Below are positions 319 through 19,561 of a stretch of 28,708 bases of DNA, piece after piece. Source of the DNA: Eledone cirrhosa (Eukaryota); the NCBI GenBank assembly GCA_964016885.1, contig CAXHJY010000606.1, forward strand, positions 1-28,708. The letters are read 5' to 3'. The translations under genes and the position numbers were made by a program. The notes under the pieces are model-generated. The model did no database searches and was not told where the DNA came from. It worked only from the letters and a program-made list of their open reading frames with translations. Each line of letters opens with the position of its first letter. Position 1 is the first letter of the stretch.

Positions 319-472
319 TTCATTATTTAACGATCGTTTCTAGGGTATATATGTGTTATAATTGGTATGCATATTCAACAGATCTATGTACAAAATTATA
401 CAAAATTATACAAATTATCAAGATTAAAATACATACCCAACACATATATATGCCGTCTTCAGAAATAATGAA
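319..472 (-). ncRNA. Type I hammerhead ribozyme motif with about 115 nt stem II insert (PLE-1 3' end)
   Basis: Minus strand: TTCATTATTT-CTGAAGA-[115 nt]-GAAA-CGATCG-TT-AAATAATGAA; 10 bp stem I, palindromic stem III ACGATCGT, TATATATGTGTT/AACACATATATA pairing within stem II. Confidence 0.8.
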
Positions 473-1049
473 GTATATTTATTGATAATAACAACAATTC
501 AAAATTTCAGTTCAAAATTGACCAATGAAAACACAAAGGGTTAAAAGCAGTTCGGTGTGTGTATATACATGTAAAATCCTTACACATATTTTACATAAAT
601 GTATGTATAACTTGTATACGCATACTAAAAAGATGGATGCAAACACAAAATTTCAAGGTTAATATCTCTGTAAGCTTAAAATGCGCTGATAAGATGCGCA
701 TTGATACTTATGGAGTCAAGCATATAAATATATTTTTTCATACTCACACATATTAGTACAATTACACATACACGCGCGTATATGCATAAATATACACATA
801 ACCACGAACATACAAACACACACACACCCCCACTCACATTTATATATGTGGATATAAAATCATAAGCACATGGATATTAAATCACTCACATAAAACACTG
901 GCACACACATTTCAAGATCAAGATACAGAAATTAGGTGGGAGGGGGGGGAGGGGTCAGTATTCAATTGTCTGAGCAGACTGCCTAATATAAATGTATCTA
1001 TAAATTAAGAAAAATAAAAAAATAAAACAATAAAATATAATAAATATAA

Positions 1050-2650
1050 TATAATATACATACACATACAGATATATACACATACATACATGTACGCGCA
1101 CATAGAAATATTTACGCATACACACATACACACATACATATACAGTCATACACACACATACACTTACACGAACATACCCATACACATATATAAAGATATA
1201 TATATACACACACACACACACGCAACACATACACACATACACATATATATAAAAAATAAATAATAAAGATATATATCCATATATATATACACACACATAT
1301 ATATATATATATATATATATATATATACATATACATACACATACATCTAAATATATATACACATACATACACACATACATGTACATACATGTACATACAT
1401 ATACGCACATCGATATACATATATATATATATATATATATATATATATACACATACATAGACATATAGATACATACACACACAACTTACATACACACATA
1501 TATATATATAGATGTACATTCATACATAGAATTAGATATATAATCATACATACATATGCACCTACTTATACTCATATATATAAATACATACGCTTCCATA
1601 TATGCGTATATACATAAAAAACACTACAACCTCACCTAACTCAGACATACAAATAAAAATAATAATAAAAAGGCATATGTATATACATACACACACTCAT
1701 TAATAGAGATATATATATATACACACATACATACACATATATATATATACATATATATACACATACATATATATATATATATATATATATATATACACAC
1801 ACATACACTCATACATATATATATATATATATATATAAACATATATATCCACACACTCATACGACCATAAATACACATACAAACACCCACATATATATAT
1901 ATATATATATACACACGTATATATATATATATATATATATATATACACACACATAAACAACAGACATGCACATATATATATATATATATTTTTTTACACT
2001 TATATATACACATATTATATACACATACACAACCTCACTTATACACATATACACATAAGTTATATTATAATAATAAAGAATAATATACATATATATATAT
2101 ACATATACATATATATATATATATATATACATACATAAATACACACATACGAATAAAGACATATATTCACACATAGACACCTATATATATATATATATAT
2201 ATCTATATATATATATACACATATATATATATATACACACACACACACACACACAGACACATATACACACTCATATATATATATATATATGTGTATGTGT
2301 GTGTGCGCACACACACATATATACACACACACATACAAACACACACAAACACATACATACGCATACGTGCACACACACACACATATATCACATAGATACG
2401 AAGATAAACATATAAATAGAGAGACATACATATATATACAACACACATACACATACATACATACACACGCATATACATATACTTATATATATATACATAT
2501 ATATATTCCTATATATACAAGCATACACATACATACACATATATACACATACATACACATATACATACAACACATTCACATACACATACATATATAATGC
2601 ATATATATACATATATATACATACATATGTACACTCATATATACACACGC
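1050..2650. repeat. Mixed (TA)n/(CA)n/(TACA)n microsatellite region
   Basis: Directly visible low-complexity dinucleotide mosaic. Confidence 0.9.
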
Positions 2651-3949
2651 AATCTTACATTCATATTTGCATGCGCATATATGTATTTTTATATTTAGAT
2701 ATAAATACCCAAACCTATATAGACACCTACCTACATATATATTCATACATAGACGCTTACAAATACAGATGATAATAGTATGGGGGAAAAGGGGGGGTTT
2801 GGAGAAGGGGATCAAAGTAAATATATGTTTCAAGAAACATATAATATTTTCCGTATCTTTATTCAATGTATGTTCTTACATATTTTCAGTGCTAGGAAAT
2901 ACGACAAACAAGAACTAAGGCAAAATCTATGCATCTCAAAATAAATAAGTATACCATTAATCATATGTTAACTAAACCAAAGATAGTCAACATATTGATT
3001 TCTAAGGTGTAAATTAGTTAGGTTTATAATATTTGAAGCAGAATTTTGAAGTCAAACAGTAGTAGATTATTAATTACAGTATAACTAAATTAAAGTTAAT
3101 AACGTTATGGTATCAATATTAGGAAATGAATTTAGTAATAGGGAAAAGAAACCCAAATAAAAATAAAATAAAGTATTACATCAGTAGTAGCATATAAATT
3201 ATATGTTAACTAAATTAAAAATTATATATTTATTTCAATAGTATATGTTAATTAGGTATACAATACATAAAGCAGATATTGTATTTCATCAATAGCATAA
3301 TATAATTATATGCAAATAGAAATCAAAATTAATACGCATACATATACATATACATACACATACACATATACATACATATACACACATATATATATATATA
3401 TATATATATACATATATACACATATATACATACATACAGATACACATACACACACACACATACACATACACATATACATATACATATCTTTTTCAAAAAA
3501 TTGCACAGAATATATTAACTAGGTATATATCCAAAACACATCCCATTCTATGATTACATGACATTCTGCAATTCGTCTGTATAAGGATACTAATTTTAAG
3601 CAAATTAAAATTAAAATTTTTAGGTTGATTAAAACTAAAACCAAATAATAAATATATTTCCAAAATGTATATTAATTAGGTCTATAATACTAAAAATTGT
3701 TTCTCTGTCATTGGATACACGATATTATTTTGTTATATTTTATCTGTAAAAGAGTTATAATAAAAGGTTTAAATAAATTAAAATTAATCTATAAATTAAA
3801 TTACTAAGTATATATTAGTAATATTTAAAGGTTTTTCACAATTTATGATTACATAATGTTTTATATTCTCATCTGTAATAAAATATTAATTAAATTAAAT
3901 TTATAGGTTAACTAACATTTAAATTAAATTAATTTCTAGAATAATGTTA

Positions 3950-17094: not shown

Positions 17095-17971
17095 AGCCTA
17101 GGGTTTACAATGACGTCGGGAGTACTATTACTATTATTATGAAATTCAATGTTGGAAGGAAGAGATTTAGTATTTAGTATTTTATTGTTGTGTTTAGAGA
17201 TGATGTTGGAAATATTGGAGGATGTAGAATAAGAAAATTTGATGGTGTGTTTGTTAAATATTTTACTATAGATATGTGAGGGAGGGAAGCATTTATTTAA
17301 GGCACTAAAAAATAATTTAGGAATATTGTTATTAATAGAGATGGAGAAAGGAGCATTATACCAGATTATGTTTTTGTATCTAGGTCTTTTATTAAAATTA
17401 TTGGAATGATCATGATTAATTATTCTACTGTAAGTTTTTCTAGAATTTGTTTCTTTACTATATTTGATTTTATCTGGATAGCCGGCTTTAGAAAGTGCGT
17501 TATTATAGTAATTGGCGTTAGCATCAAAGATGTTAGCCTAGGGTTTACAATGACGTCGGGAGTACTATTACTATTATTATGAAATTCAATGTTGGAAGGA
17601 AGAGATTTAGTATTTAGTATTTTATTGTTGTGTTTAGAGATGATGTTGGAAATATTGGAGGATGTAGAATAAGAAAATTTGATGGTGTGTTTGTTAAATA
17701 TTTTACTATAGATATGTGAGGGAGGGAAGCATTTATTTAAGGCACTAAAAAATAATTTAGGAATATTGTTATTAATAGAGATGGAGAAAGGAGCATTATA
17801 CCAGATTATGTTTTTGTATCTAGGTATTTTATTAAAATTATTGGAATGATCATGATTAATTATTCTACTGTAAGTTTTTCTAGAATTTGTTTCTTTACTA
17901 TATTTGATTTTATCTGGATAGCCGGCTTTAGAAAGTGCGTTATTATAGTAATTGGCGTTAGCATCAAAGAT
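16652..17971. repeat. Three tandem copies of a 440 bp PLE coding segment
   Basis: GTTAGCCTAGGGTTTACAATGACG starts at 16652, 17092 and 17532 (period 440). Confidence 0.95.
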
Positions 17972-17976
17972 GTTTT

Positions 17977-19561
17977 TAATCTCTCTCTAATTGCAACTGC
18001 CGCATTAAAAATAAATGTTTTCTCAACAACCATTGTCTCGATAAAAACTTAATTTATGAATGTAAAATTATAACTAGCACCAATTCCTTCACCTATTTTG
18101 GCTCCACTTCCACCTCTTTTAAAGCTCGTCTCTATAATCACCATTCAACTTTCAAATACAAACTTAAAAGAACCAACACGGCTCTCTCAGAACTCATATG
18201 GTCCTTGAAAGACAAAAACATTAAATATACCATCTTTTGGAAGAAGGTTTCTTCTGCATCCTCATACTTGAACAGCTCTCTATCTAAAATCTGTAATCTC
18301 TGCCTAAATGAAAAATTTACCATTATCTCTAATCTAGATTCTATAATAAATAGACGTACAGATTTGTTTTCTATCTGCCTGCATACATTCCATAGGACTT
18401 TTCACAAAGTATACAGTTAATATTCAATTCTTTATCAATTTAGAATCTTTTCCAAAGGCACATATACATACACCTCTTTAAAATATACACATATTCCTAC
18501 CTTACTTCAAAGGGCATTATACACTCTATAATACTTGTTTACTCATTACCCTCTTTCTATCTTCACCTTGTAAAATCCTTCATAACATATACATTTGTTT
18601 TTTTGACGTTAGAATATTCATCCGCAATTATTATTATTTTTTCTCTCTATCATAAAACTTTTTAATCTCAATTTCATCCTTAATTTATTATTTTTTTCTC
18701 CCATCAACGAACTCATTCTTAATACATATTAACTCTTTATTCGCATATATTATCAATTCCTTCAATATACAAACTTTAACTTCACATTATTTTTCTCAAA
18801 TCCTTCTACACACAAACCTTAATAATTTTTTCTCTTCGTTAATTTTGAAATTGCCACAATACTTATCAACATACACTTTTTTTGACGCTACAATATTCAT
18901 CCACAATTATTATTTTTTCTCTCTATCTTCATACATAAATTCCCTTCGTTAATTTTCAAATTCCTTTAATTTATACATTATCTTCCAACGATTCTCAACC
19001 TCTCTATGTAAAACAATATATCTTTTCTCAGTTATAAAAACTATCTCTTTCTCTCTATCACCCATCTCTCCCTCTCCACCTTCACTCTCATCTCCTCCCC
19101 TTTTTTTCATCCTTTCCACCACCCCCTAAATAAAATATTTTTTCCTCGCACATATCTTCCCTTCGTTAATTTTCAACTTCTTTTAATTTATACATTATCT
19201 TCCAACGGGTTTCAACCTCTCTATGTAAAACAATATATCTTCTCTCAGTTATAAAAACTATCTCTTTCTCTCTATCACCCATCTCTCCCATTCATTTCCT
19301 CCCCTTTTTCATCCTCCCCCCCCCCCCCACCCCCCCTCTCTAAATAAAATATTTTTCCCAATATCACACATCAATCTAAAACCACTTTTCATATGTTGAT
19401 TTAAAACTGCACTATCCACAAGTGTTTTTTTAGCCTTCATATCATGTTCTCCTGTTTTATCTGATGAAAACACAAATATTATTGCATGATGATGTTTGTT
19501 TTTGAAATGCGCATAATAAAATACATGGAACTCCTTTAACCATCTTTTGATCTTATATTAT
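17977..19561 (+). repeat. Right arm of 1.58 kb inverted repeat (inverted PLE-5 3' end including GIY-YIG coding region about 17983-18420)
   Basis: Reverse complement of 14921-16501. Confidence 0.95.
19455..19521 (+). ncRNA. Type I hammerhead motif with extended 36 nt stem II
   Basis: TTTTAT-CTGATGA-AAACACAAATATTATT-GCAT-GATGATGTTTGTTTTT-GAAA-TGCGCA-TA-ATAAAA: about 15 bp stem II with G-U pairs, palindrome ATGCGCAT, AUA site. Confidence 0.85.

What the first reader, a model, noticed from the sequence alone, without database searches (positions are those of the whole stretch)
319..19521. Each PLE family carries a different stem III palindrome: a possible family-specific ribozyme dimerisation code
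Seen: stem III reads ACGATCGT (PLE-1), ACGTACGT (PLE-3), ACACGTGT (PLE-4), ATGCGCAT (PLE-5), ACTAGT (14561 element), and a loop containing ACTAGT (7729). All are self-complementary and the four coding families all differ. Established: minimal PLE hammerheads with palindromic stem III cleave poorly as monomers and better as dimers. Inference: distinct palindromes could restrict activation to same-family RNAs even when families are co-transcribed from one cluster; the shared ACTAGT may indicate cross-talk between the two ORF-less elements.
Basis: partly seen in the sequence, partly recalled or inferred. Interest (0 to 1): 0.75.

Follow-up and report, generated by a model that had tools for sequence, protein, structure and literature searches.

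The report
Dimer-type hammerheads of Penelope-like elements
Several jumping-gene families nested here each carry a small hammerhead RNA motif whose third arm is self-complementary, which likely lets two copies pair up to cut as already published; these arms are inherited within lineages, change slowly and are reused by unrelated families, so they are not a family-specific code.

Summary
The six helix III sequences are real and far more palindromic than chance; that four families differ is chance (P 0.82-0.91). The window is a nest of broken Hydra-type Penelope-like elements, one Neptune-like element and two ORF-less elements in (TA)n. In 1.8 Mb of the same genome, palindromes are stable within families, but three of the five perfect ones (those of PLE-1, PLE-4 and 14561) recur in unrelated hammerhead lineages; 23 lineage states use 15 eight-mers, no fewer collisions than chance. 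Sister subfamilies switch palindrome by compensatory changes, also at the innermost pair, which cannot pair within one molecule: good support for the known double-hammerhead homodimer. Predicted heterodimers in the window are weak, but helix I must also match, so exclusion is likely a by-product of a two-part address. The 7729/14561 cross-talk fails: opposite strands, out of register, helix I cannot close. No cleavage or RNA data. The scan reached the same verdict before on other DNA.

The parts
265..497 (-). PLE-1 3' terminal repeat (pLTR), with hammerhead at 319-472: helix I 10 bp, helix II 115 nt, helix III ACGATCGT (330-337)
   Evidence: 233 bp 100% identical to 5827-6059; fold z -4.1
3950..5776 (-). 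PLE-1 ORF, 5'-truncated (608 aa open; an intact copy elsewhere has 830 aa), RT plus C-terminal GIY-YIG, Hydra-type motifs
5827..6059 (+). Inverted 5'-truncated PLE-1 copy with hammerhead at 5852-6005 (helix III at 5987-5994)
6565..6617 (-).
   Evidence: (18 copies held)
6885..7445 (-). PLE-2 ORF fragment, Neptune/Nematis-like linker and GIY-YIG with CCHH; fifth coding family
7646..8300 (-). ORF-less element (longest frame 52 aa) with hammerhead at 7729-7779; 16-nt helix III (7736-7751) = 4 bp plus 8-nt loop, folds as a monomer
8666..10421 (+). PLE-3 ORF, truncated and in two frames, Hydra-type
10712..10762 (+). PLE-3 hammerhead with U3-A8 core variant (core at 10722), helix II 12 nt, helix III ACGTACGT (10744-10751)
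   Evidence: variant described in PMC4209133
11380..11498 (-). PLE-4 hammerhead, helix II 90 nt, helix III ACACGTGT (11386-11393)
12421..13310 (-). PLE-4 ORF fragments (two frames), Hydra-type endonuclease
14424..14836 (+). ORF-less retrozyme-like unit, 3' part; hammerhead at 14560-14602, helix III ACTAGT (14590-14595)
14959..15029 (-). PLE-5 hammerhead, main copy, helix III mutated to AGGCGCAT
16060..18420 (.). PLE-5 C-terminal ORF fragments: minus-strand copy with internal duplications (16060-17986) and inverted copy (17980-18420)
19453..19523 (+). PLE-5 hammerhead, inverted copy, helix II 36 nt, helix III ATGCGCAT (19507-19514)
19652..19767 (+). 5' part of the 14561 unit (unit positions 1-116), separated from the rest by the PLE-5 insertion

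Best explanation
Each element carries a type I hammerhead motif in its 3' repeat whose helix III is self-complementary, likely because the ribozyme works as the published double hammerhead, pairing with a second copy of its own lineage; the palindrome is inherited, drifts by compensatory changes and recurs in unrelated lineages, so it is not a selected family code. Shown: motifs, constancy within families, compensatory switches, reuse by unrelated lineages. Inferred: in an intact tandem element the two same-strand repeats of one transcript pair through helix III and exchange helix I strands, and cutting releases a unit RNA; any palindrome satisfies this, so identity is free to drift while self-complementarity is kept. 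Predicted by-product: two lineages cross-activate only if helix I and helix III both match. Motifs with a stable monomeric helix III (7729) or tandem mismatches (AGAACT) depart from the rule.
For: Perfect palindromes in 9 of 17 hits from 200 kb of arbitrarily placed stretches and in 27 of 52 lineage clusters, 21 of 31 with two or more copies, against 0.0185 by chance for 8-mers. One ORF-less lineage (3,555 pattern matches, control 1): first 100 listed = 60 ACAATTGT, 24 ACGATCGT, 8 ACGGCCGT, 8 single-site variants (hand count); on a tree built without helix III the five states need 4 changes, the minimum, against 13.1 shuffled, and a G-U intermediate exists; helix III cells 100% paired, both inner pairs change on both sides. 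Second lineage: 47 ACCGATCGGT, 13 ACCGCGCGGT, 1 ACCGCGGT, 16 variants, 4 unrelated of 81 (hand count). The innermost pair, which has no loop to close in a monomer, changes on both sides in 5 clusters (2 well sampled, 3 with one copy of a state). Reuse: 23 lineage states, 15 distinct 8-mers (expected 19.5 from 64, P(15 or fewer) 0.006; 16.6 from 32, P 0.24); PLE-4's palindrome behind short helix II in 93 places against 2 control, 13 of 30 fetched with a helix I; colliding ACGATCGT and ACTAGT lineages both recent (nearest-copy identity 0.98-1.0). Of 1,482 ordered hetero pairs, 23 pass both helices, 54 helix III only, 78 helix I only. Intact PLE-1 copies carry two same-strand motifs 6.2 and 6.6 kb apart. 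Literature: PMC4209133, PMC6765202, PMC3088659 Fig. S8 legend.
Against: No cleavage was measured. An 8-nt helix III gives 2 bp plus a tetraloop, the form PMC7229834 ascribes to invertebrate motifs that cut well as monomers. Same-strand pairs are rare among coding copies held (PLE-1 2 against 14 inverted pairs, PLE-4 1 against 9, PLE-5 1 against 10). No two ORF-linked families in my sample share a perfect palindrome, and no second lineage was confirmed for ATGCGCAT; the ACGTACGT collision is weak (1 of 15 copies of an old lineage). Lineage clusters rest on short AT-rich contexts, so some collisions may be old shared ancestry (merged count 20 states, 15 distinct: P 0.09 and 0.62). Most family copies were top BLAST hits, hence young.
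Confidence: 0.72

Rival explanations
1. Selected self-recognition code: palindromes (alone or with helix I) are driven apart so that co-expressed families or sister subfamilies do not cross-activate or poison one another.
For: Cross-family helix III duplexes in the window are predicted at -3.0 kcal/mol or weaker against -4.8 to -15.2 for homodimers, and for PLE-4 on PLE-3 helix I alone would not exclude pairing. Sister subfamilies with the same helix I differ only at helix III. ORF-linked families in the sample all differ.
Against: Collisions are as frequent as or more frequent than random; recent unrelated lineages share ACGATCGT and ACTAGT; PLE-1 subfamilies down to 80% endonuclease identity keep one palindrome; four differing families is expected by chance.
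Confidence: 0.12
2. The motifs cut as monomers (2 bp plus tetraloop, helped by helix I/II contacts or proteins); palindromy is only a legacy or a folding aid.
For: Efficient monomer cleavage of coral and mussel retrozyme motifs (PMC7229834); 7729 folds into a complete monomer; a coding Neptune-like lineage uses AGAACT in 21 of 26 copies; low activity even of dimers in PMC4209133.
Against: Compensatory change at the innermost pair has no explanation in a monomer; predicted monomer helix III is +2.4 to +6.0 kcal/mol for the five perfect palindromes.
Confidence: 0.1
3. The palindrome dimerises two RNAs for a step other than cutting, such as bringing two templates to one insertion site to make the inverted copies, like a retroviral dimer initiation site (analogy recalled).
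For: Palindromic loops persist where helix III is stable as a monomer (7729 lineage; a Hydra-linked lineage with a 5-bp helix and GAGCTC loop). Inverted pairs outnumber tandem pairs in coding families.
Against: No direct evidence; the 7729 loop varies between sister subfamilies; Naiads make inverted copies without canonical hammerheads (PMC8557442).
Confidence: 0.06

Closest known systems
Hammerheads in pLTRs of metazoan Penelope-like elements (Cervera and de la Pena 2014, PMC4209133; Lunse, Weinberg and Breaker 2017, title only)
   Same: Type I motif in the terminal repeat, palindromic helix III/loop 3, U3-A8 core variant, several families per genome, proposed dimer.
   Different: Helix III here is 6-16 nt rather than absent; helix II is up to 115 nt; palindrome states are mapped on subfamily trees here.
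Hydra clade PLEs (Craig et al. 2021, PMC8557442)
   Same: C-terminal GIY-YIG without CCHH, CxCx5C linker, CxxC and CxH, DKT, (TA)n targets, hammerheads, inverted 5'-truncated copies.
   Different: PLE-1 unit is 6.2-6.6 kb (clade described as generally under 3 kb); RWR in place of RWK; no tree with reference sequences was built.
Animal non-LTR retrozymes (PMC7229834; bioRxiv 10.64898/2026.07.22.740005)
   Same: 14561: ORF-less tandem units with one type I hammerhead each.
   Different: Unit about 420-590 bp with PLE-like inverted copies; circular RNA not shown.
Double hammerhead of ASBVd and newt satellite (as reviewed in PMC6466107, PMC6765202)
   Same: Weak monomer helix III fused into a long helix between two copies.
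   Different: Copies here are kilobases apart in coding elements; activity untested.

Membership tests
Type I hammerhead, dimer type | Conserved core (CUGANGA or U3-A8 variant), GAAA, UH | tested here: met
   Rfam models gave no hammerhead among 103 matches at E 1 or less, likely because of long or unusual helices
Type I hammerhead, dimer type | Helices I and II form, with covariation | tested here: met
   for a related lineage helix I 98.8% and basal helix II 97.3% paired. PLE-2, PLE-3 helix I short; PLE-4 and 14561 MFE folds differ from the hammerhead
Type I hammerhead, dimer type | Self-complementary helix III too weak for a monomer | tested here: met
   Five perfect palindromes, monomer +2.4 to +6.0 kcal/mol; not met for 7729 (-1.4)
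Type I hammerhead, dimer type | Self-cleavage, enhanced in dimers | not testable with these tools
   No assay; no RNA holder listed
Minimal hammerhead (min-HHR, no helix III/loop 3) | Helix III reduced to the core positions | tested here: not met
   Window motifs have 6-16 nt between A15.1 and U16.1; a 4-nt ACGT lineage exists elsewhere
Hydra clade PLE (PLE-1, 3, 4, 5) | C-terminal GIY-YIG lacking CCHH, with CxxC and CxH | tested here: met
   Read from translations against PMC8557442 section 11; Pfam gave no hit
Hydra clade PLE (PLE-1, 3, 4, 5) | CxCx5C linker | tested here: met
   Exact in PLE-1, 4, 5; variant in PLE-3
Hydra clade PLE (PLE-1, 3, 4, 5) | DKT and RWK motifs in RT | tested here: inconclusive
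   Intact PLE-1 copy has DKT and RWR; not examined for the other three
Hydra clade PLE (PLE-1, 3, 4, 5) | Groups with reference Hydra RTs in a tree | not tested
   No reference sequences held; endonuclease tree only separates them from the PLE-2 group
Non-LTR retrozyme (14561) | ORF-less tandem units each with a type I hammerhead | tested here: met
   520-bp unit in arrays, longest frame 105 aa
Non-LTR retrozyme (14561) | Expressed as linear and circular RNA | not testable with these tools
   but switches between sister subfamilies

The most novel reading that the evidence does not exclude
Helix I plus the helix III palindrome form a two-part self-recognition address for trans-dimers of PLE and retrozyme RNAs; a compensatory palindrome switch isolates a new subfamily from sisters with the same helix I (three addresses within one 3,500-copy lineage), and such dimers bring two templates to one insertion site.
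Probability: 0.12. Interest if true: 0.65.

Novelty: new member of a known kind. Interest (0 to 1): 0.3.

Why it matters
What PLE hammerheads do is still open (PMC8557442 calls it unclear). The useful new piece is comparative: compensatory changes at the innermost helix III pair imply that pairing between two copies is under selection in vivo, and natural sister subfamilies that differ only there give ready-made constructs for homo/heterodimer tests. The family code itself is not supported.

Tried and rejected
Rfam scan of the window: no hammerhead, only microsatellite-driven miRNA matches. The repeat finder swamped by (TA)n. Genome search with the PLE-5 flank returned nothing, words too common; PLE-5 copies came from flanks of other loci. 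RF00163 search returned mainly one lineage with a 7-nt odd palindrome. A lineage first counted as sharing PLE-3's palindrome proved old, with ACGTACGT in 1 of 15 copies; dropped from the collision count. First PLE-1 tabulation used a faulty pattern, redone. Last pattern search was too loose (7,333 matches, control 3,370); it showed PLE-3 subfamilies keeping ACGTACGT and three unverified non-PLE-5 rows with ATGCGCAT. Mimicry of a coding partner by the ORF-less ACGATCGT subfamily: no shared sequence with PLE-1 beyond simple repeats, no ORF in its unit. Links of two 10-nt palindromes to Neptune-like ORFs rest on one insertion each and are not trusted. A second core-like motif at 12293 (minus) in PLE-4 forms no credible helix III. 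No RNA holder listed. Four clusters judged not credible (23, 26, 27, 38) were left out; two 5'-truncated rows stayed in alignment A1. Lunse et al. 2017 is not held.
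Full report
Observation. A motif scan of both strands finds complete type I hammerheads at 319-472 (minus) and 5852-6005 (plus) for PLE-1, 7729-7779 (minus), 11380-11498 (minus), 14560-14602 and 19453-19523 (plus); the PLE-3 motif has the U3-A8 core at 10722. Three things were missed. The minus-strand PLE-5 copy reads AGGCGCAT. A fifth coding family, ORF 6885-7445, has a motif with core at 6607 and helix III AGATTT; of 18 copies held, 11 read so and the relatives read AGAACT or AGAATC. 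7729 and 14561 are on opposite strands. Palindromy is not chance (0.0185 for an 8-mer); four families differing is (0.91 or 0.82).

What the window is. It is contig C633 of a 3.0-Gb genome: a nest of insertions in (TA)n. PLE-1, 3, 4 and 5 are truncated or broken, 30-45% identical over most aligned stretches, and show the Hydra-clade endonuclease signature; an intact PLE-1 copy has an 830-aa frame with DKT and RWR. PLE-2 has the CCHH-type endonuclease and falls in a separate, fully supported group. 14561 is a 520-bp ORF-less unit found in tandem arrays, split in the window by the PLE-5 insertion. 7729 is an ORF-less element of about 650 bp. In other copies the PLE-1, 3 and 4 motifs lie at family-typical distances downstream of their endonucleases.

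Within families. PLE-1 54 of 54, PLE-3 47 of 47, PLE-4 49 of 51 (53 matches, 2 without the right anchor), PLE-5 21 of 25, 14561 83 of 83. The PLE-3 and PLE-4 queries excluded the palindrome; those for PLE-1, 7729 and 14561 included it, and top hits are young. PLE-1 subfamilies at 80-89% endonuclease identity keep ACGATCGT. In the 7729 lineage 52 of 86 matches have the window's helix III and 19 have TCTAGT in place of ACTAGT.

Across families. I held 1.83 Mb of the genome. A scan blind to palindromy gave 549 motifs in 1.63 Mb (348 perfect, 41 odd-centred, 37 with G-U, 95 one mismatch, 28 none; reversed control 1), weighted by the families I searched for. Unweighted: 9 of 17 perfect in 200 kb of arbitrarily placed stretches, and 27 of 52 lineage clusters. 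Palindromes recur: ACAATTGT in 5 clusters, ATATATAT in 4, ACGATCGT and ACTAGT in 2 each. PLE-1's palindrome is in 24 of the first 100 listed of 3,555 matches of an unrelated ORF-less lineage. PLE-4's stands behind a short helix II in 93 places against 2 control, in several old lineages; 13 of 30 fetched have a helix I. 23 lineage states use 15 eight-mers; random draws give 19.5 (64 options) or 16.6 (32 options, since 38 of 39 states have C or U at 15.2); merging likely relatives gives 20 and 15. There is no deficit of collisions. Against my reading: no two ORF-linked families share a perfect palindrome in this sample, the ACGTACGT collision is weak and none is confirmed for ATGCGCAT.

How palindromes change. 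In the ORF-less lineage, ACAATTGT, ACGATCGT and ACGGCCGT share helix I and map to subfamilies with the minimum 4 changes for five states (shuffled 13.1), with a G-U intermediate; helix III is 100% paired and both inner pairs change on both sides (these are single inherited events). A second lineage switches its centre between GATC and GCGC. The innermost pair changes on both sides in 5 clusters, 3 of them on one copy. Adjacent bases cannot pair in one strand, so this points to pairing between two copies (inference).

Mechanism. In a double hammerhead the GAAA of copy A meets the UH of copy B, so helix I as well as helix III forms between copies (follows from the topology in PMC4209133 Fig. 1 legend). 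Predicted helix III homoduplexes of the six named motifs are -4.8 to -15.2 kcal/mol, cross-family ones -3.0 or weaker; monomer helix III is unfavourable except for 7729. Over 39 states, 23 of 1,482 ordered pairs pass both helices, 54 only helix III, 78 only helix I. For 7729 with 14561 the in-register helix III is +0.3 or +1.8 and the first helix I pair cannot form: no cross-talk. Intact PLE-1 units put two motifs on one strand 6.2-6.6 kb apart, which gives each motif its own partner; no coding copy in this window has a same-strand pair. Nothing shows co-transcription of the cluster.

Literature seen. PMC4209133: parts 1-2 of 4: palindromic helix III, dimer model, low activity. PMC8557442: passages and section 11. 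PMC7229834: passages and first third of results: efficient monomer cleavage in coral and mussel. bioRxiv 10.64898/2026.07.22.740005: parts 1-2 of 5 and passages. PMC6466107, PMC6765202, PMC3088659: passages. Lunse 2017: title in reference lists only. Six searches listed no paper whose title or abstract start proposes a family code; supplements were not opened and may hold such tables. Earlier scan notes, read after my tests, report the same idea and verdict on another piece of this genome and in other genomes.

Verdict. A new set of members of a known kind. The code reading is not supported as stated; the compensatory innermost-pair changes are a modest, testable addition. Interest 0.3.

Noticed in passing
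window 319-472, 5852-6005, 11380-11498; L121:9689-9826: Hammerheads with 90-115 nt helix II hairpins (PLE-1 fold z -4.1), far outside the 7-17 nt spacer used in PMC8557442 and missed by Rfam; several unrelated lineages have them.
   Followed up: partly
window 14424-14836 and 19652-19767: The 14561 element is one circularly permuted 520-bp unit with a 13-nt overlap, interrupted by PLE-5 in its internal (TA)n; fits copying from a circular or tandem RNA.
   Followed up: partly
L221-L240: 17 strict hammerheads in 200 kb of arbitrarily placed stretches; extrapolates to about 250,000 in the genome (95% interval 150,000-410,000).
   Followed up: partly
L130, L160, L308 (cluster 15): Hydra-linked lineage with U3-A8 core, a 5-bp helix III and a GAGCTC palindrome in its loop: palindromic loop kept although a monomer is stable.
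   Followed up: partly
L121, L189, L261, L277, L304: Neptune-like coding lineage whose helix III is AGAACT (tandem A-A mismatch in a dimer), 215-321 bp after the endonuclease in 5 insertions.
   Followed up: partly
L288, L294, L387 and G000 C1: ORF-less 0.7-1 kb element, at least 3,555 copies, fixed 3' end about 200 nt after the hammerhead, partial tandems; three palindrome subfamilies.
   Followed up: yes
window 12150-12300 (minus): A second CTGATGA core 120-130 bp after the PLE-4 stop, conserved in most PLE-4 copies, with no credible helix III.
   Followed up: no
window 17098-17980: PLE-5 holds two tandem 440-bp internal duplications next to its inversion junction.
   Followed up: no
window 22270-24959 (plus): Broken non-LTR retrotransposon with AP endonuclease and RVT_1, inserted between very long (TA)n tracts.
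   Followed up: no
window 130-3950: PLE-1 3' UTR is 3.3-4.1 kb, mostly (TA)/(CA) microsatellite, against about 0.7-1 kb in its 80-89% relatives.
   Followed up: no
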